Assembly (NCBI GenBank): GCA_020137815.1
Contig: CM035353.1
Coordinates: forward strand, 2,914,001-2,978,000
DNA length: 64,000 bases
From: Hormiphora californensis
Taxonomy: Eukaryota; Animalia; Ctenophora
Direction: 5' to 3'
Within the stretch, counting starts at the first letter, position 1. Each line of letters begins with the position of its first letter. Of this stretch, positions 3,027 to 64,000 are shown in pieces. The notes under the pieces are model-generated. The model ran no database searches. It was not told the origin of the DNA and saw only the letters and a list, made by a program, of their open reading frames with translations. A program made the position numbers and the translations under genes.

Positions 3027-17309
<14,283 letters not shown>

Positions 17310-39600: not shown

Positions 39601-42600
39601 TAGATATAAACACTCATATATGTATCATGCAATGCTATAAGCGATAATTTGCTGCGTTATACAGATCTGTCACACTGCAGGAACCGACCGAAACAAGTAA
39701 ACAACCAATCAGAACTCGTTATTTAGGTCACGTGACTGGTTATCAGCCAATCAGGGACCAGTATTTCCTGATTCGGTCGGTTCCTGTCACACTGGCTATC
39801 TGCTCCACGAGTAGAGAGCTGCGAGCTGTCACGATCTGTGCACATGCAAACTCTATTTCTGATCCTAAGCTACTACTTCTTATCACTGCACTGGGGGAAA
39901 TTAAACAGTCGTAGCAGAGGTTCAGACTGTTTCCCTGAGTGTCTGGCGGCGCCGACCCAATATCTGATCTGAGCGAGAATCTAGTACACACACTCACAGT
40001 GACTGTATATACTCACAGTCACACATTCTAAACTATATAGCTGTTTAATTTCAGTGAAATGGAAGGTGTACTTGCAGAACAACAAGCTGCAGGAGTTCCC
40101 ACGCCCGTTTTGTCGCCGAGAAAAGATCAGGAACAGTTGAATATCACACCAAAAAAAGAGCAAAGAACACGCTAAGATATTTATGAAACATTCAAACGCC
40201 ATCACTGCAGTTATAGTTTATCGTCATACATAGCGACCTTGCTATAATTCGAATCACATATAGTTGGGTCGGTTGTGGGAAGTCGGATCTGGAAATTTAA
40301 AATTGACTTGCTAATATGTTTAGTGACTCTATAAAAAGTCCAAAGCACCATCCCACAGGTCTCTACCACCCCCGGTTCACTAATTATTCGTAATTATGTG
40401 ATTTATGACGTTATGGCCAATTAGCACTAATAATACCAGTTCCTGGTCACTTATAGCTTAGATTTTGATACCAGATGATAGAGGATGACTAGATTAGTGG
40501 GCATACAAAATTTGAGGTCGATCGGATTTATGGTCGAGGAGTTATAGCCGTTTTTCCGTTTGGCTGGCGGTTGGCTGGCACCACGTGGGATTACGGGTTT
40601 AGGTCGTCGTAGGAGGTCGTGGTTGGTCGCATTCGATCGGGCTTGATGAGGTGATCAAAACCTAGTGGGGCCAGACCTTGGCCCCACCCCGTTCTGGGGT
40701 TATTAGGCTTTTTTGGTTTTGGCGGGAAAATATTTTGGCGGGAAACCGAAAAAGCCTAATAACCCCAGAACGGGGTGGGGCCAAGGTCTGGCCCCACTAG
40801 GTTTTGATCACCTCATCAAGCCCGATCGAATGCGACCAACCACGACCTCCTACGACGACCTAAACCCGTAATCCCACGTGGTGCCAGCCAACCGCCAGCC
40901 AAACGGAAAAACGGCTATAACTCCTCGACCATAAATCCGATCGACCTCAAATTTTGTATGCCCACTAATCTAGTCATCCTCTATCATCTGGTATCAAAAT
41001 CTAAGCTATAAGTGGCCAGGAACTGGTATTATTAGTGCTAATTGGCCATAACGTCATAAATCACATAATTACGAATAATTAGTGAACCGGGGGTGGTAGA
41101 GACCTATGGGATGGTGCTTTGGACTTTTTATAGAGCCACTAAACATATCAGCAAGTCAAATTTATAATTCCAGACCCAACTTCCCACAACCGACTCTACT
41201 AATAGTTCACCCCACAGCCAGAAAGAGTTAGAGGAATCTCTTATCACACACACACACACACAAGATAATATATCAAGAGTATCAAGACTCCATACACACA
41301 CAGAGGTGTGATATCACACACACACACAGGTGTGGTACATCACACACAGATCACACACCGTAATATTGGACAGGATTGGTGATGTAAAGTTGTCTGGAGA
41401 TGCCGTGGTCACCATGGCTCCCTTGTTCCTAGTGTTACCAGGGTACATGCTCTGGGGAAATGCCGCGTCAGATGATGCCTCCTCGTTGAAATTGCAGAAT
41501 TTCGCTAATTCTTGATTCGCCCCGCAAATAGCGGCTCGAATTTAGGTGTTTGCCGCGTTTTTACAAAAAAGCAAATTTTTCAGCAGCTGATTTTGAGTGA
41601 AACATTTGCTTTTTTTGGATTCGCTCCGTTATTCGGATCTTCATTCGCCCCACTATTTGCGAATCGAGTCAAGAATTAGGGTGAGTATATAATATGTGTT
41701 GTGTGTTGTTTGATAGATAAAGATAGCAGGGGCACACCTTTATTAAAGGTATATGTGCCTGCTATAAAGTAATCAAGTCCAACACATCCTATGCACCCAT
41801 CGGACGGGCTGTATGCCATATAATATTAACCTATTATTGATGCTTGTTGTTCCTGTATTGATGCTTATATTGATTGATGCTGTTTAGTTGAAAATGCAGG
41901 TGACCATCGTTAAAATGGTTACCATGCATTTTGTTATTTGTACTACACATCACGAGTACAAACATATGCTGAGCTGATATTATCATTTAATTACATATTC
42001 TAGTATTATACAGCGAAACCTCGATTTACTGGTCACCGGGGAGCTCGATTTACCGCACCGAATACAAATTGCCATATTATGATCTATAGCTATATTGAGT
42101 ATTATTTTTCACTTAAAATTAACTCCATTCTCACGAGCACCCGGTAAATCGAGGTTTAACTAATATATTCTGGGTAATCCAACGTGAAACAAGGCATGAT
42201 TGAGACATTTAAAAAAAGCTATGTACATAAATGTAATCGCATCATGAGGAAGTATTGCTTTTCACAGATACGTACTGCAGTAGTGAACAGGTAAAAACAA
42301 TGTATCATATATATGTTTGGAGCTGACAACTATATAGGAACATATGCAGCTGGAATTGTATATACTATACTAATTGTATATACTAATTGTATATACTAAT
42401 ATTATATACCTGTGGGCCATGATAAGCCATTATGGTGAGTTCCATGTAGAAGGGTAGGATCGATAACAAGTCCAACCATGGCAGGATCTGCCTAGAAAGA
42501 AGGAAAATAATTATGATATACCTCCAGAAAGTATTTTATCTTTGTTTTAGTCTGGAAATTATAGACGTCGAAGCATTCCTTTGCCTGATATTGGCAAAAG

Positions 42601-45600
42601 AATACTTCCAAGACGTCCCCTTCCCATTATTTGTGTTTGATCGTGTTCGTTTATTATTATCTCTACTGGAAATGGTCAAATGGATACACCTCCCATCCCA
42701 TCACCTAAGACATCACGGTACCCATCACATCCATGAAAGTCGTATGTTGGTCAGTTTGTATTGTTTGTTGTTCAAATTAGATAACTTATACATATTTATA
42801 TCTGTTATCTGATGATTAAACTTTTGTGTTTGTGAAACAATTGGTCCCATCTCTATTATAATTTTTTTTGGAAAAACAATTAAAAATATATACACAATGG
42901 TATTTACAATGGCAATTTACAATTTTATATTATTAAAAGCATAGGTAAAATCATCAACATTATAATCTCTCATTTTCCTGCTGTTTCTTGACCCACGTAT
43001 ACATAAAAGGCTCAATTTTAAAATGATAAAGGAGAGTCTCACTCTTAAAAAGCTAATAACGTCATTAAAATTCTCATTCTTCTTATTACAAATCTTGTTA
43101 CATAAAAGTTTTAAAAAAGTCTTGCATTCAGGTCCATAGCCTCCTGTTATTGAAAAAATTAAAGGGGTAAAAGTGCCTCTTTCGACATTTAAAATTCTCT
43201 CATTATATTTACACCTTTTCTTAGATTCAAGATATGTAAAAACCTTCTTTGCACTTTTACATTTAGTTATGTAGCTTTTAGAGTTCGGATTAATAAGCTG
43301 CACATCAAAAAATGCATTCTGTCCATCACGATAAAATCCGTGAGCCTTAATGTCAGGTTTAGCCGAATCTTCCGTCGCCGTTGTCCTTGTGGTGAAACTT
43401 TCTCCATCAACAGCTTGAAGGTCCAGCTCCCTCTCTACGTCATTGCACACGGTTGTAAGTTGGTCAGCTAAGAGGTTGCACAGCTTGTTGTGCCTGTAGA
43501 TTACATACCCTCCTCTACCACAATTGATTAAATCTCTATTATAATTTGGAGATGAACGTCGTCGAAGTCGTTCGTTCAGCGGTATCTAAGCGACAGTGCT
43601 CCTTCATAAAACACTTTAAGTGACCAAAGCTGTAAAGCTGTTGTTTACACTTTTGGAACTTCAGTGGAAGTTTGTTAATATTTTCGAATAACTTTGAACA
43701 TAGTTACCAACTCAGTTGTCATGGCAACCGGTGTGACGTATGTTGAAGTTGAAAGGGACGAAAAGAACCGCCCGGCGAGGCCGGGTGGGTTATCAAAAAG
43801 CCCTTACTTGAGGCGCACCCAATGGGTGCGCTAGTCTCTATTATAATTTGGAGATGAACGTCGTCGAAGTCGTTCGTTAGGCGGTATCTAAGCGACAGTC
43901 TGCTCCTTCATAAAACACTTCAATGTGCCCAAAGCTGTAAAGCTGTTATTCACACTTTTGGAACTTCCAGTGGAAGTTTGTTAATATTTTCGAATAACTT
44001 TTAACATGCCAGTTTCCATAGTTACCAACTCAGTTGTCATGGCAACCGTTTTATAGACGTTGAAAGGGATGAAAAGAACCGCCCGGCGAAGCCGGGTGGG
44101 TTATCAAAAAGCCCTTACTTGAGGCGCACCCAATGGGTGCGCTAGTCTCTATTATAATTTGGAGATGAACGTCGTCGAAGTCGTTCGTTCAGCGGTATCT
44201 AAGCGACAGTGCTCCTTCATAAAACACTTTAAGTGACCAAAGCTGTAAAGCTGTTGTTTACACTTTTGGAACTTCAGTGGAAGTTTGTTAATATTTTCGA
44301 ATAACTTTGAACATGCCAGTCTCCATAGTTACCAACTCAGTTGTCATGGCAACCGGTGTGACGTGTGTTGAAGTTGAAAGGGACGAAAAGAACCGCCCGG
44401 CGAAGCCGGGTGGGTTATCAAAAAGCCCTTACTTGAGGCGCACCCAATGGGTGCGCTAGTATACTAAAAGCCACACTTGGCACTTGCATATAATTTCATT
44501 ATTCACTCACTGTCTCCTCAATATACCCGTTTTGATTTGAGCAGTACGTGTGAGCAGTACAACGCAATGTCCGATCTAGCCAACCCGGTGCTCAGTGCAA
44601 CGGTGAAAGGGGAATCACTTGATTCTTTGTTTTCCGATTCGATTGATCTTGAAACGAGGGGTGCATCACACTATTTAACAGGAACCGACCGAATCAGGAA
44701 ATACTGGTCCCTGATTGGCTGATAACCAGTCACGTGACCTAAATAACGAGTTCTGATTGGTTGTTTACTTGTTTCGGTCGGTTCCTGATATTTAATATGT
44801 TATCGGAAAACTATTTATTCTAACAACTTTGATAAAAGAAGGGTAGTGTTGGTATTTATATGTAAACTAAATCTCTAACGCTCTCCCGTTGTTTTCGCAC
44901 CACCCTGCCAGTATCAACATTATATAACAGGAACCGACCGAGACAAGTAAACAACCAATCAGAACTCGTTTTGTTAAAACTGCCTCTTTATTTCGTTAAG
45001 TTGAGATTTACCCCTTTGTATGCGGGTGACTCGCTGCATATAAACCCGGGTTTATTGGTTATATATCAACCCTTTACAACACTATTGTCTAGCTAGACCC
45101 TGTTTCGCGAGCCCCGCCCGCGAAATATAAAGGGAGGGTTAGAACATAACAACTATAACACTACTTAATATTAATTACTATACTTACTTAGTATTAATTA
45201 TATTCAATATCAAGCAGCTCCAAGAGCAATAGATAGAGATATGTCTTGATTATATTTAATAATATATTAATATAATCAACACATATCTCTATCTCTTGTC
45301 CCTGGAGCTACTTGATATTGAATATAATTAATACTAAGTACCTCCACGTACAAGAGGTGGGAGTAAGACCACTCTATGTAGCAGGAACCGACCGACACAA
45401 GCAAACAACCAATCAGAACTCGTCATTTAGGTCACGTGACTGGTTATCAGCAAATCAGGGACCAGTATTTCCCTGATTCGGTCGGTTCCTGCTATGTAGC
45501 CTCCCACAGACTATCATAGTTATATTAGGGTCACCACACACCAAAGTTAAAATTAAAATTAAAATTTTGATTTTAAACCCGCACACACCAGCGGCCGTTA

Positions 45601-48407
45601 AAATTTCTCTCCCCATTCTAAAAGTAACAATCTCACGCACGATTTTGACGGTCGCGTTGGATGACAAAATTTTAACACGCCGTCAAAATCGCGCGCGAGA
45701 TTGTTACTTTTAGAATGGGGGAGAGAAATTTTAACGGCCGCTGGTGTGTGCGGGTTTAAAATCAAAATTTTAATTTTAATTTTAACTTTGGCGTGTGGTG
45801 ACCCTTATATTGCTACCATTATTAGCATTAAATACTACCATTATTTCGACCATCGTCCAATGGTTTACTTTTGTTCTACAGTCGGACCCCGATTTAGGGG
45901 CCCCCGATTTAGTGGCACCCCGATTTAGTAGACAAGAGCCTTTCCCCCGAGGGTGTCCCTAAATCGGGGTCCGACTGTACTTCTATAAGTCCGGTATAAT
46001 ATCATCCCGATACTGCTGCGATCGACAATATTAGTTGGGAGACTCTAGTCTTACTACTAGAATATACTACCGCTTCTCTACTATCTCTTTTATTATTAAT
46101 ACTATTATATTAACATAATCACAATTTTCAATAAGGTATGATAGGTGCCGACCAATCCCTCACACAAAGCTTATGGCACGTGATGGTCCCAGGTCCGAGC
46201 GTGAAAGAGAGCAGCAGGCAAGAGAGCGGGGTAGAGATAGCTATAGATAAAAGGAGAGTAACATGGGAATGAATATTAATTGTTTATAACACAACGGAAG
46301 GCACTATAAAAGTATCAAAAAGCGGTAGCACATCGAGAGGGCAATATTATGTACTTTGGCGGTCTTTATTGTAGATCAGCACCAACTGAATTCGTCAAAA
46401 ACTAGTTTTTAAATGGGCAATTCTAGTTATTTCTTCCCTGGCCATGCAGTTACATGTACCGTATCACGCTACATTGCTCCTCTGCTTCTTTTATTGGTTA
46501 CATCACAGACCAAAAACGTGAACGTGTTGGGTACCTACAGTCAATTACTGGGCCAACACCATGAACAGGCAGCATTGGATAAGAATGTGTGTCAAAAGGG
46601 AGCGGAGAACCAACTTAGGTACTTCCAGAAATGGATGGGAGTTTCCAAAGATGGTTGGGCGTTTCAGAATATAACGGCTCGCAATCGCGTGAATATATCC
46701 TGCACCATGACCTTTGATCTGTTAAGGAAGTTCGATTCGCAACAATTGATGCCCCTGGATGAGGATTTCTCGTTAAAGAACCTCTCCTTCACCTGCACTG
46801 TCATTATGGAGCATAACATGATATCAGCGGGTGATTTGTTATGTTCTGGAAAGAGCGCCTGTCACACTGACGAGTGCCACTGTAACGAGAAGGTGTTCTA
46901 TTGTCCAAGAGGTCCTCGAAGCTGCATTCCATTCTGACCAGGTTTGTGACGGCTTTGCTTGACTGTGAGGGAGGCCTGGATGAGTGTATGTGCATTAGTC
47001 AGACGGTCACCGTGTCCTGCCTTCATGATAAGTCCTTTCAGTACTTGCCTTTCCATGAAAGAAGCGTGCAAACCCAAAACGCAAATGGGCCTTCGGTATT
47101 TGGGGTGTGAGGGGTTCAATGCGACCAATCACAACTGTTCTCAGAACGTTATTAAACCAGCTGGAAGGGTGGGGAGTGTTCTGGAAAACTCCTACGACGA
47201 TCTTTACGACGCCTGGCTAGCAGGATCAGGGGATCTGCTCGAGCAGCCTACTCAGGAGGGAAGCAGTCATTGAATATCCGGAACAGGAAGAATGCAAACG
47301 GATCCTAATCCAAGAGTTCGACCTTCCAACAGAGGGAACAGAATGGTCAAACGGCTTGTGCAACCGTATAGCCATGGTAGACTACCTACGAGGGCGTTTT
47401 ATTTAGCCAAGTATTCTTTTGTGATCCAGACAGTAGATTGCTTACGAATTTTCTTGCGTATGGAACTAGGATTTGTGACGAGAAGAGGGACTGTCCAAAT
47501 GGACACGATGAGTTGTTTTGTCCGGCTCGGTTCTACTGTAGCAAAAGCGATGACGACATAGCTTGGATAGATGAAGATAAGGTATGTGATAGGGTCCGTA
47601 GACTGCAAGAACGGGATGGATGAGTGCTCTGGTTGCGAGTTGGGTGCCCTTAGCAACAGCAAATTCCTCATCCGCAACAACATTCTTGCAATATTGGCAA
47701 TGGTCGGGGGGATAACCATATTTCTCTTCAACTTGAATGTAGGTTACCGAATCTTCAAAGAGTCTCCTGAAAGCAAATGTGGCAAAATAGATCGGATCTT
47801 CAGGATGCAGGTAGCGATGTATGACCTAATGATGGGTCTCTATCTCGTCTTGCTTGTCATAGTTTCTGTCGGCCTGCGCCTAACCGATGACTACTGTCAG
47901 TTGGACGCACAGTGGAGATCCAGTAAGTTGTGTGCCATGCTTGGATGTGTCTTCTCCGTCTCCAGTCATGGGTCATTCCTTCTGATCACCGCCATGAGTT
48001 TCGTCAGGTTTCTCAACTGCCTCAACCTGGTAAAAAACATGCGGATGCGTGTGATATGGATCGGAATCCTCGTCTCCGGTATTTTCAACTTGGGCCACGC
48101 CCTAGCGCCCATTATACCCCTTTGGCAGGTACAAAAGTTCTTCCGAACCATCATAATCTTGGACTCCAAGTTGGATAACCCCTTTTTTACGACCTATGAC
48201 CAAGACCACCTGGAGCGGATGCACTCCCTGGTATACAACAGCACTCCCGGGGAACAAGGAATCGAGACTGTGCTGCAGGATCTACGAAACATCACTTCGG
48301 AACCGTCCATCTTTAACTATGTGGACATTGGGTACTATGGAAACAGCCCACTGTGCGTCGCTAACGTCTTCAAAAACCAAGCATCCTACCTCCCTTACAA
48401 GGTAGGG

Positions 48408-48465
<58 letters not shown>

Positions 48466-51400
48466 CTCTAGGTTATAGCGTACCAAACTCTGCCGCACGA
48501 CAGAACGGTGTTGCAACCTGTCATAAAGTCTGTGGTCTGTATGAAAGATAATAGCTAAAATATCACGCTCAAAATTACACCAATCAAACAAAATTTCTCA
48601 GGTAGGATACTGTATAACGGTAACGTTTCTCATCGTCATTCTCTCCGTCTCCTACATCGGTATCTTGGTGGAAAGTCACAAGACGAGCACTGAGGCGGGA
48701 GCGGCATCTGCTGAGCACGTGCAGAAGTTGGCTCTAAAGGTGTCCCTTTTGATTGGGAGCCAGCTCGTGGCATGGATGTCCTACGTTCTCACCCTCATCT
48801 ACTTTTCCTGGGTCAACCCCACCGCTCCGAGTGCCATTGTGCAGGAGGTCTTCAGTTTAGTGGTGTTGCCCAGTAACAGCCTCCTGAACCCCATATTCTA
48901 TCAGTACCATCTATCGAGAGTCGCTGATTTCGTAGCAAAATGTTTGAGGAAACCGGAGACAGTTAGGGATCGACGAAGGGTCGACGAAGCAACTACAGGA
49001 AACACACATAGCGTGGGAAACGGGACTCAGTACCAGTAGAGACAATGCAAGCTTAGTTAAAACTACATGGACTTGGCAAGCAACATTGAAATGTTTGGAG
49101 TGTTCCATTATTGAAGATGCTTTTTTTTCAGTTTTTTGAACGCATTGCATTCTTGATACAAACACGGTATCTGGAGATAGACATTTGGAGATATGTGGAG
49201 ATACTAGACATTTTCTGAATGGAAATAATTGGCTACTTTTTCATGATGTTAAGATTCCAAAAAGTTTTTTGAAACGTTAATTGAAATATTTTATTTTTTT
49301 TGCTTAATGTTATAATATGTTTGTCCTTTGTCAGTAATCCTCAAAATCTTAAACTACAATTCGATCAGTCGATTTTACTGGTAGACACTGACCAGTGGGC
49401 TTACAACAATAGGGGTAATATGTGTATTCCTGTGAAGGAATTATATAGATACCTGAGGAATGCATTCTTGTTTTGAGCGGACCACAGTCGAGCAAGGTAA
49501 TCTGCACTGAAGAAGGCCATTATGAATGAATTCAGACCAAACAGGTAGTAGTAGTACTCATTTGAGGGGTCTATAAAATAATCCTGGACCTTCTCTTCTG
49601 TCTCCAATACTGAAATGGATCAGGGTTGAAATTGGAATTGGAGAGGAGTTGAAATTGGAAATGGATCAGGGTTGAAATTGGAATGAGAAAGGAGTTGAAA
49701 TTGGAATAAGAAAGGAGTTGAAATTGGAATAAGAAAGGAGTTGAAATTGGAATTGGAAAGGAGAGTTGAAATTGGAACTAGATAGGAATTGAATTGAACT
49801 TACCAAGAAACGCTATAGAAATGAGAATAAAGAAGCAATCCACTATGGCATAGAGAGCTGCGAGTCGGCTGCTATCTGGATTGTTTATTACACTGTCAAC
49901 ACGGGACTTCCATATACCCGTCCGAGTATTGTCTCTAAATAGAAAGAGATTTTTTATATCTCGAAAAGCAGAGGGTGTAGAAAATATCTACGACCTCGCC
50001 ATGCACTCAAACCTCGAATTTTCTACTCCATGTTTAGGCACACCCTTCATACCCATTGCCCGGCCATTGTACATGTAGTAATCCTCTGCGAGGCAACGTA
50101 AATTATATGGGTTGACGATTAACCAAGATATATCTTTGTCCAGCTGCAATCTCTATTAGTGTCATCCAAGTATGATGGAGTGGAAACTATAATTTATAGT
50201 GTACACTTATACAAATTAAAAACAACGGAAGGTCCACTTATATAGCCATACTTGGATGACACTCAGACACTGTTATATAGTACTAGATAACCGGCCCCCG
50301 TCAAGTATAAAGTACAACACATCCATACTTGGTTTACACCTATTATATACAGCTGGAGGGTCTATAGCAAGCAAAGGTAGAAGCTTGTCGGTCGCGTGGC
50401 CCAATGGCTAAGGCGCCTGCCTACGGAGCAGGAGATTCCAGGTTCGAGCCCTGGCGTGATCGTAGAATCTTTTTGTTACCAAACACGCACATGTTCTCAT
50501 GATATACCTGATTAGTTCTTTTTCTGATTGCGGGCTTCCCTCCATCTCGAACTCTTGAGGGATGAGTGGTATTTTGAAGAACTCAAACTCTCGCGTTATG
50601 AGGCCCTCGTCCATCCGATCACATAAGTACGGGATCTGACCTGAACAATGCAAAACCATATGGTGATCAAACACCAGATCACATTTCACAATTACTGCGC
50701 AACCAGTTGATCAGTTTCCAAACCCCAACAACATAACACTGCCCAATGAAAATTGCATCACCTGTATATAGAACCTTATTAGATCTAATATATTGTGCTC
50801 ACCTGTCTGATAGTAATTTACAATGGCATCAAATGCCTCTCTGTTTCTGTCAAAGTAGTATGCTGATAAGTCCTGACGGTAAAACCGGTTCAACGTATCT
50901 GAACCTGTTAATTAATTAGAGGTCATAGAGTTCAGCTCTGATGTGAAGCTTTGCAAACTAAATCTATATGTCAGAGAAAACTTCAAATTATTTTTTCCCT
51001 GTCAGCGCAATGCATGATCACTCTCGAAATTCTCGAGAATGAGTCGCAGCGCAATACGTGACAAATATATTCGTCCAGCCTAGTTCCAAACTACTGAAGC
51101 AATATAAAGTTTAGTATATTTAGTATACCCCGGTAAATCGGGGTCCGACTGTATTTACTACAAGCTTAACATACCAAGTAGGGTGTCGGGGTATTGCTGT
51201 AACAGCTCCCTGCGCAGAATGAAGGTCGCCCCGGCCACGTTGATGTTAACCCATGTACTGGTGTGATCGTTGTGATCAGTTAAACCATCCACTGCAGTAG
51301 GAGTGGGGGTTAGGGGTGGGGGAGTGGGGTTAGGGCTGGGGGAGTGGGGGTGAGCATGGGGGAGTGATGGTTGGAGTGGGGGAGTGGGAGTTAGAATGGG

Positions 51401-52737: not shown

Positions 52738-55700
52738 GTGAGATGTGAAAAGAAGTGTGGATATGAAACATAACGCGCACGCGACACAAGTGTGTCGTGT
52801 GCGCGGCGCTAAATCGCACCACACTCTCATCCAATCATCCCTCCTTCTCAAAGAAAGTCACAGTCCGCGTGTTACATCCGGTCTCTATCTCTTCGCTCTC
52901 GCAAGTTATATTTTCTACTCGCAGACGGAGGAGGGGCGACAATGTCAATCATCACACTATCAGACGGCTGCCCACTCACGGGAAGGACGGGGTCAGGGAG
53001 AGGGTCAGAACAAGGGTCAGGGGGTTTGGAAATGTCACTGTTACCTGTATACTTACCGTTCCACTTTCTCATGTGGTTGTTTGTCACAAGGGTCTCTCTT
53101 CCATCTGGTCCTCGGACAGTCACGGTGTTCTTCCCTGTCACCTTGGTGATGACGCCCTGGTGCCATGCCTTGTTCCGTCGGAAACGGACCTCCTGTCCAA
53201 CACTGAACTTGTTCTGCTTCTCTTGTACTGGTTCACGTGTTTCAGGAGTTAACAGGGGGTTGGCAAAGTCACTCAACTTGGTGATCTCTCTCCCGAGAAA
53301 GAGTTTTGCGGGAGATGCCCCCTTGCAGCCTGGTGTCGATCTGTGCTGTATCAGCCAATCCTCCAAATTTCCTCTCTTCAGACCCTCCTTCACACGGTTC
53401 ACGTAACTCTCCGCTAAACCGTTTGCTTGGGGCCAGTATGGGGGACTATTCCTCACATCAACTCCCCTCTTCTTCATCCACTCAGTAAACTCCTCACTGA
53501 TGAATTGCGGTCCATTGTCTGATACAAAAACGATCGGGATACCGTATCGGGTGATTAGCTGCTTCATCACTCCGATCAAAGCTGTGGAGGTAGTTGATTT
53601 CATCGGGAAAACCTCCACCCAATTGGAGAATGCATCCACCACCACCAGATACATCTCTTTGTTAAACTCAAAGAAATCCGCATGAACCCGCTCCCAGGGT
53701 TTGGTAGGCTCTGCCCAGGAGTGTAGTTCGGCGGGGGGTAGGCCACGGGATAACTGGCACGGTTCACATCCGCGGACTCGGTCCTCTAACTCTGAGTCAA
53801 TCCCTGGCCACCACACACTGGATCTGGCGTTACGTTTAGACCTCTCAATTCCAGGATGTCCAGTGTGGATCAGCTCAACCATCTGGTTTCTCAACGTCGT
53901 GGGACAAATCACTCTGTGACCCCACACCAACAGACCGGAAACGACTGAAATCTCCGCTCTGCGTCTGAAATACGGCTGCAGTTCCTTCTCAGGACACGTT
54001 CTCGGCCAGTCAGACTGGGTCCACTCCAGGACCTGTGCCAAGATAGGGTCCTTTCTGCTCTCTTCCAGCATCTTCTTCTTTGTTATAGCTCCCTGGGATA
54101 GAAAATGGACTGTTAGTTGTGTGTCACACAAACAAGTTGACAATTTACAACAATCTTCAGCCCGGCCCCTTTTATACTCACCTGCACTTACCAGTCTAGA
54201 ACAAGCATCTGCTACTGGTACCTGCTTGTAGCCAATGGTGTAGCTGTAGCACGACAGGATGAGGGCCCACCTAGTCAACCTTGACAGGGTCATCGTAGGG
54301 AGTTCTCTTGCTGGATGGAAAACGTATTTCAGGGCATCATGGTCTGTCCTGATCTCAAACTGGGTTCCGTAAACGTAGCGGTGGAACTTCTTGACAGCCC
54401 ACACAATAGCCAGTCCTTCCTTCTCGACCATCCCGTAGTTCCTTTCTGCGTCAGTCAACAGTCTAGACGCAAATTCCACTGGTTTCTCACCTTCATCAGT
54501 CACCTGAGACAACACTGCTCCGATAGCATACGCCGATGCATCAGTGGAAAGGATAGTCTTTCTACCATCGTGGTAGGATGTTAGCACTCTTGGTCCTGCT
54601 AACTCTGACTTCAGCTGTGAAAATGCAGCTGTCTGGCGTTTTCCAAACACAAAATCAACGCCGTCTCTGTCAATCTCGTTCAGCGGTGCTGAGATTTCAG
54701 AGAAATTCGGGATAAATCGTCTGTAGTAGTTGGCTGCTCCCAAGAAAGATTTCAACTGCTTTCTGTCTTGAGGGGGTTCCATAGCCACTATCGCTCTGGT
54801 TTTGTCCTCCTTTGGACGGATTCCCTCGCTGGAGATGATGTATCCCAGGTAATCAATCTCCTTGACCATGATACGGCACTTCTCTCGCTTGCACTTCAGG
54901 CCAGCGTCAGACAGTTTCTGCACTACTGTCCTCACACGATCCATGTGTGTCCTCTTGTCCTTGGCCGTAATCACAATGTCGTCTACACGACACTTCACAC
55001 CGGGAACACCTCTCAATATCTCGTCCATGGTCTGCTGCCATAAACCTCCGGCACTGGAAACACCAAACGGTAAACGGGTCGGGGCGAACAAACCTCGGTG
55101 GGTGTTCACTGTCAATCGTAGCTGATCATCTTCTGTCAACTGCAGGTTATTGTAGGCCTGCTGGATGTCAAGCTTGGTGAATAAATCTCCTTCCAGGCCC
55201 TCCAGACATTCCTCGAGACTGGGCAAAGGGTACCTGGTAGTATCCAACATCGGGTTAACTGTTGCCTTGTAATCTCCACAAAGCCGTACCGATCCATCAC
55301 CTTTCCTAACTGGGACCACAGGAGATGCCCACTGTGAGCTGTTGACCGGTTTCCAGGTTCCGTCTGCAACCAACCGATCAATCTCCTGGTCAATGTCGTT
55401 CCTCATACTGATGGGAACTCCCCGAGCCTTGGAGAATCTGGGTGTAGCCTCTGCTCTCCACTCCAGGTGAATCTCCTTCTCGACAGTGCCTATTCCTTCA
55501 TGGAATGCTGGGAGTGTTAGTACCTCCCCCCGGAAATTCTGTATTACCTGATCGATGCTGTTTACATGGTGTATACCCAAGGATTTGGAGACGCTGCTCC
55601 ACCAGTCATGTCCGTACAGCTCGCCCATCCACTCTCTGCCTAGTAGTGGAGGTGTATCCGGGTTCCTCGTGACGTACAGTGGTAGTCTGAAACACTTGTC

Positions 55701-56890
55701 AGGGGGGTTAGCTGAACCTCCTCCCTTCCGGGAGTCTAATGGGCGGGACTTGGGAGAGGGTTTGGGGTAAGGGGAAGGGGACTGATCTCTCACACTTCTC
55801 ACACTGACCCATACACGCCGTGCCTCCTCCGTCTGCCCATTGGCAACCGTAAACTCGACTTCTTCACCCAACTCTCTGTTACTAAGTAAACCTTCAACAT
55901 GTTTCTCACTGACTACTGTCACTGCCGCACCTGTATCAAACTCAAATGGAATACATCTGTAAGAATCACACTCTTCATTTACAATTTCAAGTAAAACTTT
56001 TGGCTCATCTTCCTGAGCACTCTCAAACTCAAACTCTCTCAACCAACGCACGCTTGCGCTGCTCCTACAGTTCTTGCTTGTGTGTCCAATCTTGCCACAT
56101 TTGTAGCACTTCGTCTTACACTCGTCTGCTCCATGGCCCTTGAGGGTACATCGCTTGCACACCGTCGCTGGCTTCTTCTTCTGGTGCTGTTGCCGGGACT
56201 GGTTGGGTCTGAAGCTGTGACAGGCAACTGCAACGTTGTTGCTGTACTGGGTCGCATCAACCTCGCTCATTGTGATGACACGACTGAGAGCCTCTTCAGC
56301 GCTCTTGGATCCTTGTTCGATAATCCAGCCTTTTGCCTTGTCAGACTTCAGGCCAACCATGAATCGGTCTCGGATGGCTTCTTCTTCCGCCTCGGTAGAC
56401 AGGAACTTGCATAACTTTGCTTGCCGTTGCACACGGGTCAGGAACTGGACTACGGTCTCCGTTGTGGTCTGGACCATGCTGTGGAATGTCAATCGCTCAA
56501 GCAACACAGGTTTGGTGGGTGCCTGAACGGTTCTGAGTGACGCGATGACAGTCTTACAATCCGTTGTTAGCAGCTGGTCACCGAAAAGATTTTTTAGCGT
56601 ACCGTATCCTTCAGCACCAATCGATATGCTGAGCAGCTGGACACGTTTCTCTTCTTTGATGTCAAGATATTCACAGGCTATCTGAAATCGTTCCAACCAT
56701 TCTTTTAGGTCCTCAGATTTACCACTCCATTGTTCCATCTGGAGTTTCTTGGATGCTGTAGCCATTGTAGGTTCGGGATCCTCGTCGCCAATTGATGTAT
56801 TCGATACCGGGTTGAGACTTTTTACAAACCCAACAACCACTGTGTTTCAAGTCTCAACCCGGTATCGAATACATCAAAGTGAGATGTGAA
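52738..56890 (-). mobile_element. Ty3/Gypsy (Mag-like) retrotransposon with PBS and PPT but non-repeated ~87-bp termini and a 12-bp terminal direct repeat
   Basis: PBS TGGCGACGAGGAT at 56790-56778 (matches a tRNA-Ser(GCU) 3' end); PPT GAGAAGGAGGGA at 52849-52838; gtgagatgtgaa at 52738-52749 and 56879-56890. Confidence 0.88.
52872..56765 (-). CDS. Gag-Pol polyprotein (Gag with two CCHC knuckles, protease, RT, RNase H, integrase) in a single intact ORF
   Basis: CYKCGKIGHTSKNC; FDTGA; RLPFGVSSA; RVDDIVI; TDAS; HTGHPG..CEPC; VHADF, SDNGPQF, NGLAES. Confidence 0.95.
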   Translation of the reverse strand: MATASKKLQMEQWSGKSEDLKEWLERFQIACEYLDIKEEKRVQLLSISIGAEGYGTLKNLFGDQLLTTDCKTVIASLRTVQAPTKPVLLERLTFHSMVQTTTETVVQFLTRVQRQAKLCKFLSTEAEEEAIRDRFMVGLKSDKAKGWIIEQGSKSAEEALSRVITMSEVDATQYSNNVAVACHSFRPNQSRQQHQKKKPATVCKRCTLKGHGADECKTKCYKCGKIGHTSKNCRSSASVRWLREFEFESAQEDEPKVLLEIVNEECDSYRCIPFEFDTGAAVTVVSEKHVEGLLSNRELGEEVEFTVANGQTEEARRVWVSVRSVRDQSPSPYPKPSPKSRPLDSRKGGGSANPPDKCFRLPLYVTRNPDTPPLLGREWMGELYGHDWWSSVSKSLGIHHVNSIDQVIQNFRGEVLTLPAFHEGIGTVEKEIHLEWRAEATPRFSKARGVPISMRNDIDQEIDRLVADGTWKPVNSSQWASPVVPVRKGDGSVRLCGDYKATVNPMLDTTRYPLPSLEECLEGLEGDLFTKLDIQQAYNNLQLTEDDQLRLTVNTHRGLFAPTRLPFGVSSAGGLWQQTMDEILRGVPGVKCRVDDIVITAKDKRTHMDRVRTVVQKLSDAGLKCKREKCRIMVKEIDYLGYIISSEGIRPKEDKTRAIVAMEPPQDRKQLKSFLGAANYYRRFIPNFSEISAPLNEIDRDGVDFVFGKRQTAAFSQLKSELAGPRVLTSYHDGRKTILSTDASAYAIGAVLSQVTDEGEKPVEFASRLLTDAERNYGMVEKEGLAIVWAVKKFHRYVYGTQFEIRTDHDALKYVFHPARELPTMTLSRLTRWALILSCYSYTIGYKQVPVADACSRLVSAGEYKRGRAEDCCKLSTCLCDTQLTVHFLSQGAITKKKMLEESRKDPILAQVLEWTQSDWPRTCPEKELQPYFRRRAEISVVSGLLVWGHRVICPTTLRNQMVELIHTGHPGIERSKRNARSSVWWPGIDSELEDRVRGCEPCQLSRGLPPAELHSWAEPTKPWERVHADFFEFNKEMYLVVVDAFSNWVEVFPMKSTTSTALIGVMKQLITRYGIPIVFVSDNGPQFISEEFTEWMKKRGVDVRNSPPYWPQANGLAESYVNRVKEGLKRGNLEDWLIQHRSTPGCKGASPAKLFLGREITKLSDFANPLLTPETREPVQEKQNKFSVGQEVRFRRNKAWHQGVITKVTGKNTVTVRGPDGRETLVTNNHMRKWNGKYTGNSDISKPPDPCSDPLPDPVLPVSGQPSDSVMIDIVAPPPSASRKYNLRERRDRDRM

Positions 56891-57772: not shown

Positions 57773-59521
57773 TCAATCCCCGGCGTCACTGTTCCTCTCT
57801 ACACTGTTCCTCTCTACACTGTTCCTCTCTACACTGTTCCTCTCTACACTGTTCCTCTCTACACCGTTCCTCTCTACACTGTTCCTCTCTACACTGTTCC
57901 TCTCTACACTGTTCCTCTCTACACTGTTCCTCTCTACACTGTTCCTCTCTACACTGTTCCCCTCTACACTGTTCCTCTCAACACTGTTCCTCTCTACATT
58001 GTTCCTCTCTACATTGTTCCTCTCTCTACACTGTTCCTCTCTACACTGTTCCTCGCTACACTGTTCCTCTCTACACTGTTCCTCTCTACACTGTTCCTCT
58101 ATACACTGCAGTTCCTCTCTACACTGTTCCTCTCTACACTGTTCCTCTCTACAATGTTCCTCTACACTGTTCCCCTCAACACTGTTCCTCTCAACGCTGT
58201 TCCTGGCGTCATTATCTCCATTCTGCCTATTTAAGAGCAGATAAAACTTTTTAATGGTCTGCCCGAGAATTACTAGACACTCGTTCAAGCCAAACTGTAC
58301 CGCAACAACATTATACTGGCTTGGAGAGTGAGCCAGGTTGAAAAGTAGAGGTGAAACCACCCTACAATCACCTGTTAGATCCGTATCAGCTCCCATGTGG
58401 GATCTCATTGTCAGAACCTTAGAGGTCTCCAACACGAGATACCCAAGGGTGAGGGAGTTAGTGACGATTTCCACCGCAGTTTTCATGGTGTTCACCACCG
58501 TTTCCTCGTCCCCATGATCAGGCTCACTACGGTCTATAACAGATCGGGAGGACACACGGTAGTACAGGTAGTAGACGACATATACCGTGGTGGCGACCGT
58601 AGACAGGATGAGAGATGCACCACAAACGACAATGGCGGAGAGCTGCGATCCCTTGAACAGCTGATCTATCATATGGCAATCTGTGGTACTGGCAGTTATA
58701 CCTAACAAAATGGCGAACGGAGTTGCTACAAGAATGATTGCAAGAATCATACCAGCGAGGAGGATTTTCGTTAACTTTTTCTTGTGAGCCCGGAAGTAGA
58801 AAGGCCGTACCACCATGATGAGCTGGAATGTGTAGATTTCTGTGTCGAAAAACTTGAGAATCATGGCGATGCAGAACTCCACCTGACCCGAGACCAAGTG
58901 CACAAACAAGAGGACTGCAAATACCCGGTCATTAGTGGGTAGGAAGAGAATGACACGGTATAGGGCGGAGATAAGTCCAAGGATGAGAGACATGGCGTCT
59001 TTTAGCATTTTAACCGATCGGAACACTTTCGATGTATCTTTTTCGGTGAACTTGATCTCGTACAGACTGGCAGCGGATGAGATGAACATGATGACCCCGA
59101 GAAGAGAGAAGATAAGAGCTGTTTCTTGGAGGCAAGCATTCATCTTGTAGAGTGCAGACATAGTTTCATTCACATGATACACCAAGGTGTGCTCAAAAGA
59201 GTGGAGGCCAGCTGTCATGGTCTGCTTGAACGCGTCAAAGTCCTTGAGATCTTCTCTCAGGAATTTCTCGGCGATCCCCGCTACGAAGCTCACGTTCCTT
59301 TCTACATCTACAAAGCGAACGCTGGCGATGCCATGTGTTTGAAGGTCATCCAGGACATCAACTGTTTTGATGTGTTCCCCGTCTATTGTTATGGTTACCT
59401 CAGCCAGAATGAGGTTTTTATTAACCTGGGAAAACTTCTCCATCAGGCCACCGTCCCTAACTAGGCTCTTTAGCTCCTCTAACGTCTCATTCCACTGATC
59501 TACAGCTGCAGCAGAGGTCAT
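57773..59521 (-). CDS. Intronless orphan multi-pass (about 7 TM) membrane protein, divergent GPCR-like, with a C-terminal 15-bp coding minisatellite
   Basis: 582-aa ATG ORF with seven hydrophobic segments; IMVVRPFYF after TM3; (EQCRE)n/(ERNSV)n tail from 57787-58200. Confidence 0.7.
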   Translation of the reverse strand: MTSAAAVDQWNETLEELKSLVRDGGLMEKFSQVNKNLILAEVTITIDGEHIKTVDVLDDLQTHGIASVRFVDVERNVSFVAGIAEKFLREDLKDFDAFKQTMTAGLHSFEHTLVYHVNETMSALYKMNACLQETALIFSLLGVIMFISSAASLYEIKFTEKDTSKVFRSVKMLKDAMSLILGLISALYRVILFLPTNDRVFAVLLFVHLVSGQVEFCIAMILKFFDTEIYTFQLIMVVRPFYFRAHKKKLTKILLAGMILAIILVATPFAILLGITASTTDCHMIDQLFKGSQLSAIVVCGASLILSTVATTVYVVYYLYYRVSSRSVIDRSEPDHGDEETVVNTMKTAVEIVTNSLTLGYLVLETSKVLTMRSHMGADTDLTGDCRVVSPLLFNLAHSPSQYNVVAVQFGLNECLVILGQTIKKFYLLLNRQNGDNDARNSVERNSVEGNSVEEHCREEQCREEQCREELQCIEEQCREEQCREEQCSEEQCREEQCRERNNVERNNVERNSVERNSVEGNSVERNSVERNSVERNSVERNSVERNSVERNGVERNSVERNSVERNSVERNSVERNSDAGD

Positions 59522-59529
59522 GTTTCCTA

Positions 59530-59875
59530 GCTTTCAGCTCTGCAGACAAGAGATATATATATCGGTCCTCAGCTTTCAGATCTGCAGACAAGAGATATAT
59601 CGGTCCTCAGCTTTCAGCTCTGCCGACAAGAGATATCTCAGTCCTCAGCTTTCAGCTCTGCAGACAAGAGATATATATCGGTCCTCAGCTTTCAGCTCTG
59701 CAGACAAGAGATATATCGGTCCTCGGTTCTTCAAGACAAGATCAGATATCTCAGTCCTCAGCTTTCCTCAAGACAAGATCAGATAGATCTCAGTTCTCAG
59801 CTTTCCTCAAGACAAGCGATATATCGGTCCTCAGCTTTCTTCAAGACAAGATCATATATCTCAGTCCTCAGATAT
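59530..59875. repeat. ~36-40-bp tandem repeat immediately upstream of the 7TM ORF
   Basis: Repeated tcctcagctttcagctctgcagacaagagatatatcgg. Confidence 0.9.
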
Positions 59876-60876
59876 CGCCTAGTTGAATGTTGTTGCAAAT
59901 GCAAAGTGTTCAAAATGGTCTGCTGCTCAGGTTCACGACGAACGGAAAGTGAAAAAAAATAACTTACTTTATTCCGGTGAATTTGTTTATGGATTTAAGA
60001 ATTTATAATTTGAAAGGGTATAAACGTTTTATGTTTTGTATGAACTCTTTGTATTGTTCATACAACATCACAATGAACTATTGTAGAGCTGTGGGGGACT
60101 TGCAGCCGGGAGATATATAATGCAGTTGCAGTACAGTTGACGTCAATATACCACACCTTTAAAAAAGATCTAAATCTATAACGTACTAAACCAAATTAAA
60201 AGTAAACGAAACTATGTTTATGAACCATTGTAGGAGGAGCAGGAGAGAATGAGGGGGATCTAAAAAATGCCTAAATTTCAGATAATTTTTTCACCGTTCC
60301 TGCAGCTCCTGGAGAATGACCATATTTTGACATTGACATAATGAATAAAAAAAGCTTCTCGTCTTATCAGCTATGAAGTTATATTCGTTTGATCCTTACC
60401 ATGAGGCCAGTGTCAGAGACCTGTGACCAGGTAGAGGTGATAAGACTGCATACATAACCCCGATCAGGTATACAATAAAACAACAACTTTAAAGTAACTG
60501 GTAACTACACCACCAATATATATGAGCTAGAAAAAACGGACCGCCGTTTTAATCCAAATCTTTCTCCTCTCTCTCTCTCTCATCTCTCTCTCTCCATTGG
60601 AGAATTATAACTATAACTGCCGACCAGTTATCTCCAGTAACCATGGTAACTGGGATATTTGTATAAAGTGAGAAAGATAGAGAGCGCGTTAGACGTTATA
60701 ATAACGTGGGGTGGTGTTAGTTCATAGTCGCACACTATAACAGGTATACAAAGCAATCCTAATCCATGTAGCTTCCACTAATATTGATATATTATTTATA
60801 TTTCAGCTGAATTTTCATCTAAAGTTTTACCTGCGTAGGACTGTGTGGTAAATTAATAATAATATGAGTGATTAGT

Positions 60877-61140
60877 TTAATGGGATGATAGGGACAAAAG
60901 GAGACTCGTTGATTTATTTAGGAAAACTTTTCGACGTTTCGCCGTGCGACGGCATCATCTGGATCCTCAAATTAATTTGTTTAAAGTAGTGTTGAAAAGT
61001 TTCAAACTTTTCAACACTACTTAAAACACAGTTTCAAACTTTTCAATACCAATTTAATTTGAGGATCTCCAGATGATGCCGTTGCACGGCGAAACGTCGA
61101 GAAGTTTTCCTAAATAAATCAACGAGTCATCCCATTAACC
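60877..61140. mobile_element. Head-to-head inverted pair of short Penelope-like terminal-repeat units, each starting with SL-like sequence and carrying a degenerate hammerhead-like motif
   Basis: SL(-) at 60966-61002; SL(+) relics at ~60998-61028 and 61030-61063. Each arm continues GATC..CAGATGA-TGCCGT.GCACGGC-GAAACGTCG...AATAAA. Confidence 0.65.
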
Positions 61141-61594
61141 TGGTTAATCATGATCATGAGACTAACGTCGCGTGGCAACACATGAACTTGTTAATATGAG
61201 TGATTGTTTGCATGCATTCTTCAGTATATTATTATACTAGTATGAGGATTGTTAGCATTGCTCTGTATACAAACTATGCTATCACGAGGAAGATGGATGG
61301 CTGCAGCATTCATGAGGGTGAAATGAAAGACAAGTATATATTAGGCATTGACAGCATTATTACAAAACAAAGCACTACGACTGTACAGTAGAAATGAAGG
61401 ATCGCGATTGTCGCCAACACAGCTAGTCTGTGTTCAATTACTATCCGTATTACCCCTGCATCTCTGTGCCTTTGTCTCCCTGATCCCTCTCGCTTATAGT
61501 TTCATCAAATCATCGCTCCCCTCTCTCCCTCATGCTATAACACGGGTACAATGGTTTCATCTGCACCACTATATGATTGTCAGTATGAATTGGG

Positions 61595-62455: not shown

Positions 62456-64000
62456 TTTCTATTAGATATGAGCGCCGCTTTTGACACAGTGGACCATGGA
62501 AAGCTGCTAGAAGTTCTGGAAGAACGGTTTGGAGTGAAGGGTTCTGTCTTGGATTGGTTCGCCAACTATCTACAAATGAGGACTTATCGGGTAAACGTGG
62601 AAGGGGAACTTTCGAGGATTGTCTCTCTGATTTGTGGAGTTCCGCAAGGTTCACTGCTTGGACCTGTGTTGTTTTTAACTGTATGTGGAGGAATTGCAAG
62701 ATTTGGCCCAAACCGTATGGCTTAAGGATTAAACTTTATGCTGATGACTCGCAATTGTACATCGTTTTGTTCCAACTGATGAGGAAAACTGGAAACTGGC
62801 AAAGGAGAGGACTGAGGAATGCTTGTCAAGTGTGAAGATGTATGAGTGAGCACTGGCTAAAGTGCAATGAGGCAAAGACTGATTCCTGCTTTTTAGGCAA
62901 AAACAGCGCCCTGGATAAGATGGTCTATCAGCCCACTGTGGACTTTGGTGGAGTGGAGATAAGCCCAGTGGACTTTACGGGAGGACAGAGTACAGGGAAA
63001 ACACAGAGTGTTCCTTGATAGCAACCTCTCTATGGAGAGGCAAATCAACAGTGTTAAGAGGCAATGTGGTTTGTTGTTGAAGAATCTATGGCAGGTAAAC
63101 CGGTGTCTAGATAGATCGACGAAGATTCTCCTTGTTAAGCAGCTCATCATTTCAAGACTGGATTATTGTAATATCCTTTACCATGGCTTACCTAAGAAGC
63201 TTCTCAACAGCCTTCAGAGAGTCTTGAACTCGTGTGTCAGATTTGTTTATGGCCTACATGGTCACCAAGACACCTACATGCCATACTTGAAAGAATTGCA
63301 TGTTCTTCCTGTGGAACAACGAGTCACGTTCAAAGCATGCCTTATGGCGTACAAGATTGTACATGGATTGGCCCCTGACTACCTGCAAGATCAGGTCCCT
63401 GTTGATGATGGACTTCATGTGATCCGGTCTACTAGAGGAAATGCTTGGCCTGATGGCCTCAAGCTGAAGTACCCTAAGCTATCAAGTGTCAACGCGACTT
63501 CCAAGTTGAGAAGAAGACGTCCGTCGGTTTACCTGCCTGAAGTCTGGAATAGGCTTCCCCTTGATCTGAGAGCTGTTGAGTCTGTGGAATCTTTCAAGTC
63601 TAAGCTCAAGACTAGTCTTTTCACTGAGGCTTTTGGTGAGACTGGACTGTCCTCTTAACACTCTCCTTCTTGCTGAGGTATGTGCTCTGGCTGGTACCCG
63701 TTTTTAATTATTTTTCTGTATTTAAGCTCGTGGCGAGCAGAAGTGTGAAGCATAAATTGGGGTTTTTTCATAGCACGAGTGTTTTTCTGTGTTTCCAATA
63801 TACGGACTTTTATATCATTTTTTAGAGTTCCAGGACTCTAACTCAGTCTGTTATGTAATCAGTCACCGATAGTTATGTGAGCCGATAGTAATGTGAGCCG
63901 GTGTAATTTTTCTTTATTATTTTTTGTTCTATTAGGGATAAGTTGGCGAGGTCTTACCAGTATATTAACCGTTCAGATCATCCTTCAGTGACAGCAGCAG
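62456..64000 (+). mobile_element. 5'-truncated second copy of the same L2/CR1 LINE; runs off the window
   Basis: Near-identical to ~7764-9300; indels in its 5' part. Confidence 0.95.

What the first reader, a model, noticed from the sequence alone, without database searches (positions are those of the whole stretch)
60877..61140. SL-headed Penelope/hammerhead-like mini-element in inverted orientation, with tandem relic leaders
Seen: two ~100-bp arms diverge from a palindromic centre at 61003. The minus arm has a perfect 37-nt SL-like match. The plus arm has two successive degenerate SL starts (AGTTTCAAACTTTTCAA twice) ending TTAATTTGAG. Both arms continue into CAGATGA-stem(GCCGT/ACGGC)-GAAACGTC and AATAAA. 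Known: CTGANGA-stem-GAAAC minimal hammerheads and inverted terminal repeats are hallmarks of Penelope-like elements, and tandem relic SLs mark repeated retroposition in dinoflagellates. Inference: a second, independent retroelement class is mobilised from trans-spliced RNA. Its ribozyme core is degenerate (U4 to A), as might be expected if trans-splicing had taken over 5'-end processing. Both this element and the LINE have GATC directly after the SL.
Basis: partly seen in the sequence, partly recalled or inferred. Interest (0 to 1): 0.8.

Follow-up and report, generated by a model that had tools for sequence, protein, structure and literature searches.

The report
Leader-capped Penelope stub, joined head-to-head
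This is a real 318-base insertion in a comb-jelly (ctenophore) genome, made of two back-to-back copies of a ribozyme-bearing repeat that is likely the front end of a Penelope-type jumping gene, and it was likely copied from RNA carrying the host's spliced leader, whose palindromic tip forms the joint: a new twist on a known kind of insertion.

Summary
The structure is in the window, but the leader is the ctenophore spliced leader (SL), not a dinoflagellate one, and the insert is wider than reported: 60874-61191, between 14-bp direct repeats. Each arm holds a minimal hammerhead with A at position 4. Short-read contigs from two samples join both outer ends to their flanks and hold the tandem-leader arm, so this is no chimeric read. 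They do not hold the 'perfect SL' left arm as assembled. The arm belongs to a multi-copy family in two species. Most copies are not SL-headed: they keep a native upstream region, often with an acceptor-like AG at the leader junction, and several begin exactly at the predicted ribozyme cut. So trans-splicing has not replaced the ribozyme. Best reading: a short head-to-head insertion of a Penelope-like element's front end, copied from SL-capped RNA and joined at the SL's own 5' palindrome. No RT/GIY-YIG partner could be searched for. This scan has reported such head-to-head Penelope stubs in other genomes; the SL head is the new part. Verdict: new variant of a known kind, interest 0.4.

The parts
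60860..60873 (+). Left copy of a 14-bp direct repeat; likely target-site duplication
   Evidence: Exact repeat at 61192-61205, only 2 copies in the window; Markov expectation about 1e-4. No empty allele seen; one contig of organism B aligns across it (record 25), so part of it may be element-like.
60874..60932 (-). Left arm, 3' part: from the base after the predicted cut through AATAAA (60918-60913) to the arm end
   Evidence: Joined to the left flank in contigs of two samples (records 9 and 17); family homology stops at 60877 in several contigs.
60933..60961 (-). Minimal hammerhead core and helix II, A at position 4; as assembled only 2 bp of helix I
   Evidence: Window-specific letters of this arm are not found in the contigs.
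60962..61008 (-). GATC plus a full SL as assembled (G instead of C at 61003); 45 of 46 nt identical to the head of the SL-headed LINE at 4517; unconfirmed by short-read contigs
60984..61022 (.). Palindromic joint: 19-nt perfect arms around 61003; its 11-nt middle (60998-61008) is the SL's own 5' palindrome, shared by both arms
   Evidence: two such cDNA ends are predicted to pair at -8.5 kcal/mol, one alone to fold back at -0.8.
60998..61029 (+). Outer leader: 5' 30 nt of the SL, one substitution, 3' end missing
   Evidence: contigs of X2 and X5 hold it (records 10, 11, 22).
61030..61063 (+). Inner degenerate leader: deletions of 3 and 6 nt, one substitution, ends in TTTGAG
   Evidence: same contigs.
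61064..61102 (+). Minimal type I hammerhead: helix I 4 bp, core with A4, extra base between 9 and 10.1, G10.1-C11.1, helix II 5-6 bp, palindromic ACGT in place of helix III, predicted cut after 61098
   Evidence: descriptor from PMC4209133.
61103..61137 (+). Right arm 3' part with AATAAA (61113-61118); lacks 16 nt that the left arm has
61138..61191 (+). 54-nt extension on the right arm only; likely the Penelope 'tail'
   Evidence: Its first 30 nt resemble the sequence that follows the arm in other family copies (loose ends before 60877 in X1 and X11; compared by eye); bridged to the flank (records 13, 14, 23).
61192..61205 (+). Right copy of the 14-bp direct repeat

Best explanation
This is a short head-to-head insertion of a multi-copy hammerhead-bearing repeat, likely the front end (pLTR) of a Penelope-like retroelement, likely reverse-transcribed from RNA onto which the ctenophore spliced leader had been trans-spliced. 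Steps: (1) shown: the family carries a pyrimidine-rich stretch, in several copies ending in AG, 5-6 nt before the core; inferred: this is a splice acceptor, and the host adds SL there. (2) Inferred: an earlier SL-headed retrocopy was transcribed and capped again at the AG at the leader's 5' end, which gives the double leader; slippage is an alternative. (3) Inferred: with A at position 4 the ribozyme did not cut, so the leader stayed on the template, whereas cut RNAs gave the copies that start right after GTC. (4) Inferred: the element's enzyme nicked both strands 14 nt apart and primed at two start sites 54 nt apart (the one-sided tail); the cDNA ends met at the SL's 11-nt palindrome, by pairing of two cDNAs (favoured) or by fold-back of one. 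The insert is likely a dead-end copy present on at least three haplotypes.
For: SL identity. Minimal-hammerhead features met except U4. Inverted pLTR, TSD and a one-sided tail are the described Penelope layout (PMC3846280; PMC8557442). An intron end at the 5' side of helix I is described for Drosophila virilis Penelope. A purified Penelope-like enzyme cuts and extends both strands, with two start sites that define the tail (PMC11167929). Family in two species with non-SL upstream DNA: 6 loose-end rows behind 60963/60964 in all 4 runs. Starts at the cut: 3 X7 contigs leave the alignment at 60929 with a consensus that matches the family for 3 more letters and then departs, and X11 record 12 leaves at the same place. 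An SL-headed copy in organism B, also with a core change (C15.2 to A) (record 31 and joint 60967/61058). Pairing energies. SL-primed fold-back of cDNA is shown in vitro for C. elegans (PMC9984361).
Against: No autonomous RT/GIY-YIG partner was found: no genome is held, and none of the 8 window ORFs scanned is one. The state of position 4 in the other copies could not be read from the tables, so step 3 is untested. One upstream type in organism B has T where the acceptor G would be. No empty allele confirms the TSD, and one organism-B contig aligns across the left repeat (8 differences in 66 nt). The tail (54 nt) is longer than the 30-40 nt in the papers. The frame from the ATG at helix II closes after 14 codons, unlike the lizard element. 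The left arm as assembled lacks contig support and no contig spans the centre. Rfam shows no hammerhead.
Confidence: 0.62

Rival explanations
1. The insertion is real but the leaders were picked up at the DNA or cDNA level, not by trans-splicing of the element's own RNA: the enzyme jumped from the element RNA to an SL-capped RNA (for example the SL-headed LINE, whose head shares GATC), or the stub landed beside one of the many genomic SL copies.
For: The left arm's head matches the LINE head at 45 of 46 nt. SL copies are very numerous (718 reported in PMC8527503; high summed depth). One upstream type lacks the AG.
Against: The junction falls at the register where other copies have AG (6 nt before C3), one organism-B contig has a non-SL AG directly before the same six letters (arithmetic on record 32), and the leaders lie inside the direct repeats with both 5' ends at one palindrome.
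Confidence: 0.17
2. One reading: a distinct class of mini-elements that always travel as SL-capped RNA and have let the ribozyme decay because trans-splicing makes their 5' end.
For: A double leader suggests two rounds through SL-capped RNA; both SL-headed cases seen have a core change; the right arm has higher depth than the left flank in X5 (268 and 186 against 71).
Against: Most core-bearing depth is not SL-headed, native upstream DNA is kept in both species, and several copies start at the cut. In X1 and X5 only one SL-to-core contig was laid.
Confidence: 0.08
3. The repeat is not Penelope-derived: it is a retrozyme- or SINE-like family moved by another enzyme such as the LINE in the window, and the hairpin arose later by DNA rearrangement at the SL palindrome.
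For: No partner shown; no ORF start at helix II; Rfam silent; an SL-headed LINE with intact-looking endonuclease and RT frames lies in the window.
Against: No poly(A) or simple-repeat tail at either outer end; zero-loop minimal hammerhead, inverted arms, one-sided tail and direct repeats all fit Penelope-like elements; a 2026 preprint treats animal retrozymes as Penelope-derived anyway (title, abstract start and passages only).
Confidence: 0.08
4. The head-to-head joint is a misassembly that joins two separate loci at SL repeats.
For: No contig spans the centre; the left arm's inner part lacks contig support.
Against: The same 14-mer flanks both outer ends; the core contig ends exactly where the two arms part, so a second copy runs from it into the left-arm type of 3' end; both junctions occur in two samples.
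Confidence: 0.05

Closest known systems
Endonuclease-bearing Penelope-like element insertions with an inverted pLTR, tail and TSD (Adineta vaga Pen2a/Pen2/Pen3a, PMC3846280; fig. 2 of PMC8557442)
   Same: Head-to-head arms, a palindrome at the joint, direct repeats outside, an extension on one arm only.
   Different: No ORF in the insert; the joint palindrome comes from the host's spliced leader, not from the element; tail 54 nt rather than 30-40 nt.
Minimal hammerheads (min-HHR) of metazoan Penelope-like elements (PMC4209133)
   Same: Helix I 4 bp, extra base between 9 and 10.1, G10.1-C11.1, palindromic 15.2-16.2, pairs on opposite strands 100-700 bp apart, a splice junction at the 5' side of helix I (D. 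virilis).
   Different: A at position 4; the junction carries a trans-spliced leader; some genomic copies start at the predicted cut, whereas no RNA reads began or ended there for the lizard element (PMC11167929).
SL-tagged retrocopies: DinoSL relics (PMC5585692), SL exons merged to transposons in Schistosoma mansoni (PMC5832876), SL-capped transposon transcripts in Hydra (PMC12220107)
   Same: A leader exon in genomic DNA at the head of a retrocopy; repeated leaders read as repeated rounds.
   Different: Ctenophore host, a ribozyme-bearing non-coding stub, inverted rather than direct arrangement; the outer leader lacks its 3' end.
SL hairpin self-priming of cDNA in C. elegans direct-cDNA libraries (PMC9984361)
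   Same: A self-complementary leader tip lets cDNA synthesis continue into an inverted copy.
   Different: Shown in vitro as a library effect; here the product is genomic, and pairing of two cDNA ends is predicted to be more stable than fold-back.

Membership tests
Penelope-like elements (EN+) | pLTR flanks an ORF with PLE-type RT and GIY-YIG endonuclease | not testable with these tools
   No genome held; contigs show only 30 loose letters; none among the 8 of 23 long window ORFs scanned.
Penelope-like elements (EN+) | Inverted 5'-truncated copy adjacent head-to-head | tested here: met
   centre itself not spanned by a contig of this locus.
Penelope-like elements (EN+) | Target-site duplication | tested here: inconclusive
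   14-bp repeat, expectation about 1e-4; no empty allele; record 25 aligns across the left copy.
Penelope-like elements (EN+) | Tail of 30-40 bp on one end only | tested here: inconclusive
   One-sided extension of 54 nt, family-like over its first 30 nt by eye.
Penelope-like elements (EN+) | Dispersed multi-copy family with 5'-truncated members | tested here: met
   many contigs in two species, leaving the alignment at different 5' points.
Minimal hammerhead (min-HHR) | Core CUGANGA ... GAAA, NUH | tested here: not met
   A at position 4 on both arms; all other core positions met.
Minimal hammerhead (min-HHR) | Helix I 4-5 bp, helix II with G10.1-C11.1 and an extra base, palindromic 15.2-16.2 | tested here: met
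   Plus arm; the minus arm as assembled has only 2 bp of helix I.
Minimal hammerhead (min-HHR) | Self-cleavage as a dimer | not testable with these tools
   Indirect only: family copies that start at the predicted cut.
Rfam hammerhead families | Match to a covariance model | tested here: not met
   No hammerhead among 71 matches or 1 match at E up to 10.
SL RNA gene | Leader exon followed by a GT donor (my own knowledge of SL RNA genes) | tested here: not met
   All three leader 3' ends in the window are followed by GATC.
Dinoflagellate-type tandem SL relics | Complete new leader joined at an AG within an older leader | tested here: inconclusive
   The inner leader starts at the SL's 5' AG and is more decayed, but the outer one lacks its 3' end.
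Non-LTR retrozymes | Tandem units, each with a hammerhead | tested here: not met
   No tandem array at the locus; not testable genome-wide.

The most novel reading that the evidence does not exclude
In ctenophores the spliced leader's palindromic tip works as a universal glue for retroposition: a Penelope-type enzyme working on both strands can join the cDNAs of any two SL-capped RNAs head-to-head, and many of the hundreds of genomic SL copies are heads of retrocopies rather than SL genes. That would be dinoflagellate-style RNA recycling in an animal lineage, with a readable record of which ribozyme copies cut in vivo.
Probability: 0.25. Interest if true: 0.7.

Novelty: new variant of a known kind. 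Interest (0 to 1): 0.4.

Why it matters
How Penelope-like elements form their head-to-head insertions, and whether their minimal hammerheads cut in vivo, are open questions (PMC8557442, PMC11167929). Here a host-added leader marks the true 5' end of the template RNA and supplies the joint, so ctenophore genomes offer a direct count: leader-headed copies against copies that start at the cut, and identical arms (fold-back) against different arms (two cDNAs). It also offers an origin for the 718 genomic leader copies that PMC8527503 reports. This single locus is a small dead copy and its layout is known, which limits the score.

Tried and rejected
Whole-genome search: no genome held. Rfam: no hammerhead; the miRNA matches reflect hairpins and simple repeats. 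Monomer folds are not significant (z -0.57 to -1.95) and do not give the hammerhead fold. Metagenome pattern scans: 0 loci and 2 loci, both GC-rich sequence without the core, read as chance. SL pattern in viral contigs: 0. Earlier findings by sequence and by place: none; by SL words: none. No RNA holder listed; the one possible RNA run laid (X12) covered the SL but not the arm, which says nothing on expression. Reading position 4 in other copies: the variant tables seem to list only places 31 or more letters from a piece's end, so it stayed hidden; the identity class of the main X5 contig allows 2-3 differences over 60931-60964 but not their places. Empirical control for the 14-bp repeat: 419 of 19,666 random windows (2%) show such a repeat; the 135 of 6,241 hits of the systematic scan fall in 10 one-kb bins, most of them at tandem arrays, so I use the Markov figure with that caveat. 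Dinoflagellate host, SL RNA gene and chimeric read were rejected. Two papers that may bear on precedent were not held: the Terminon paper and Derelle 2010. I recall that bdelloid Athena/Terminon papers mention SL trans-splicing; this is unverified. Literature searches for SL-headed Penelope elements and ctenophore Penelope elements listed no paper that describes this; I read listings only for most hits and no supplements.

Full report
Observation. The sequence is as described. Around 61003 the arms are perfectly complementary for 19 nt; 60903-60963 and 61068-61128 differ at 2 of 61 positions. The minus arm reads leader, GATC, core; the plus arm reads the 5' 30 nt of a leader, a second leader with two deletions, GATCTC, core. 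The arms differ by a 16-nt indel, the left one ends near 60874-60877, and the right one runs 54 nt further to 61191. An exact 14-mer flanks the whole (60860-60873, 61192-61205); it occurs only twice in the window, with a Markov expectation near 1e-4. An empirical control gave 2%, mostly from tandem arrays.

Host and leader. PMC8527503 (passages) prints the leader of the ctenophore Hormiphora californensis; the 37 nt at 60966-61002 match its 3' part exactly (by eye). The paper reports 718 genomic copies and does not, in the passages seen, discuss retroposition. So the host is a ctenophore. The leader begins with an 11-nt near-palindrome, and this is the centre of the hairpin, shared by both arms. 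A third leader in the window heads a LINE at 4517 (endonuclease and RT domains). None is followed by GT, so none is an SL RNA gene (criterion from my own knowledge).

Ribozyme. Against the minimal hammerhead of PMC4209133 (parts 1-2 of 4 read) the plus arm has helix I of 4 bp, the extra base between 9 and 10.1, G10.1-C11.1, palindromic 15.2-16.2 and C17; position 4 is A. A descriptor with position 4 free finds only these 2 sites in the window, against 0.025 per simulated window (40 simulations). Rfam has no hammerhead match. PMC3088659 (passages) notes that a natural U4C variant strongly lowers activity in vitro yet suffices in vivo; it has no passage on U4A, so loss of activity here is inferred. 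In D. virilis Penelope the intron ends at the 5' side of helix I, the place where the leader is joined here.

Is it real? No genome is held, so I laid short-read contigs: 6 of the 12 runs listed. The tables are cut (one search shows 32 of 2,347 pieces and 24 of 137 loose ends; one search shows 32 of 66 and 24 of 43), and depth is not a copy number. Left flank to left arm is bridged in X2 (60650-60929) and X5 (60706-60914), two samples of organism A. The double leader plus core is held in X2 (two alleles) and X5 (61000-61128). Right arm to right flank is bridged in both. No joint to an empty site appears. X1-X4 may be the source of the assembly; X5 is a different sample. So the insertion is genomic and present on at least three haplotypes. 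The core contig ends at 61128, exactly where the arms part, and is unbroken back to 61053 (X1, X2) or 61000 (X5). I infer (about 65%) that the true left arm equals the right one, double leader included, and that the 'perfect SL' arm, which matches the LINE head at 45 of 46 nt, is a consensus error or another haplotype. A filter may also have dropped such contigs.

The family. The arm is multi-copy in organisms A and B, with two subfamilies that differ by small indels 3' of the cut. Upstream of the core, all 6 loose-end rows shown at 60963/60964 are a related non-leader sequence. In organism A (X1 depth 249.1, and X5) it ends in a pyrimidine-rich stretch and AG, 6 nt before C3, the register of the plus-arm leader junction; one X7 row has AG 5 nt before C3; two rows (X7, X11) have T in place of that G and then GATC, so GATC is native to the element. 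X7 record 32 has 4 differences to the minus arm and 2 to the plus arm over 61062-61122; since the arms differ at 2 places, it must match the AG and the six following letters exactly, and it then departs from the leader. SL-headed depth is 39.2 of 288.4 (X1) and 268.3 of 1622.9 (X5). One organism-B contig joins 35 nt of leader to the arm (7 differences, 8 gap letters) and has C15.2 changed to A. Three X7 contigs and X11 record 12 leave the alignment at 60929; the X7 consensus matches the family for three more letters and then departs, which puts the 5' ends at the base after GTC, the predicted cut. In X5 a contig of depth 381 ends at that base while only about 82 carries on into the core (inferred from contig limits). 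Other copies are cut elsewhere (60920, 60919, 60941), and one is a small fold-back (X1 record 8, X5 record 24). Position 4 in these copies could not be read.

Mechanism. Inverted pLTR, palindromic joint, TSD and one-sided tail are the described Penelope layout (PMC3846280, passages; PMC8557442, passages). A purified lizard enzyme cuts and extends both strands from two RNA start sites that define the tail, does not need ribozyme cleavage, and no RNA reads began at its cut site (PMC11167929, passages and part 2 of the main text). I therefore propose: leader added at the element's acceptor; a second round giving the double leader, as read for dinoflagellates (PMC5585692, passages); an uncut template because of A4; priming at two nicks 14 nt apart; joining at the leader palindrome. 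Two cDNA ends are predicted to pair at -8.5 kcal/mol, one end to fold back at -0.8; fold-back at leaders is shown in vitro for C. elegans (PMC9984361, passages). Shown: anatomy, family, junction register, starts at the cut. Inferred: all enzymatic steps and Penelope membership.

Comparison and novelty. SL-capped transposon RNAs are known in Hydra (about 30% of transposon long reads; PMC12220107, passages) and genomic SL exons merged to transposons in Schistosoma (PMC5832876, passages). PMC7986045 (passages) and the 2026 retrozyme preprint (passages) added little. Searches listed no report of an SL-headed Penelope stub or of a joint at an SL palindrome; two relevant papers were not held and no supplements were read, among them the host list of PMC8557442, which names ctenophores for the hammerhead-less Naiads. 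Earlier notes of this scan describe head-to-head Penelope stubs in other genomes; they are unchecked AI notes. The finding works like a Penelope stub; membership is untested at the defining protein feature. Verdict: new variant of a known kind; interest 0.4.

Noticed in passing
window 4517-9368: An SL-headed LINE: leader, ORF1 (448 aa), endonuclease (258 aa) and RT (767 aa) in separate frames, ending in a TTA-repeat tail. X2 and X5 contigs hold the leader-to-LINE junction (loose ends before 60961). A second, 5'-truncated copy starts near 62460.
   Followed up: partly
window 60966 (loose ends): In three DNA runs 22-24 contigs each continue from the leader's 3' end into sequence with low agreement (0.42-0.45) and no shared GT in the consensus: many genomic leaders may be heads of retrocopies, not SL genes.
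   Followed up: no
window 60966-61046 (X5 records 18-21; X7 records 28-30): Contigs from other loci cross the centre as head-to-head leader pairs in both species; X5 record 19 (depth 101.7) has unaligned flanks on both sides. Only X5 record 18 meets the 31-letter rule for bridging; library fold-backs are not excluded.
   Followed up: partly
window 61000-61400: In X5 the right arm and right flank have higher depth (186-400) than the left flank (71); unexplained: extra copies, a repeat in the flank, or uneven coverage.
   Followed up: no
window 61138-61191: One frame of the tail is open for its 17 codons, and related loose ends in X1 and X11 hold an ATG at a like place; it may be the start of the parent's ORF.
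   Followed up: no
window 52872-56846 (-): An uninterrupted 1,324-aa frame with zinc knuckle, RT, RNase H and integrase domains: an LTR-retrotransposon polyprotein.
   Followed up: partly
window 42917-43585 (-): A 222-aa frame without Pfam match that by eye resembles the restriction-like endonuclease end of a non-LTR element (recalled), next to a 311-bp tandem array at 43533-44460.
   Followed up: no
window 15229-16330 and 40509-40953: Two further inverted-repeat pairs, the first with 163-bp tandem units on each side; 9736 and 39339 are copies of another dispersed repeat.
   Followed up: no
window 57773-59533 (-) and 47571-49039 (+): A 586-aa frame without Pfam match that ends in a 15-bp tandem array lies 1.3 kb from the element on the strand of the left leader; a rhodopsin-like receptor fragment (weak 7tm_1, E 0.00087) lies at 47571.
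   Followed up: no
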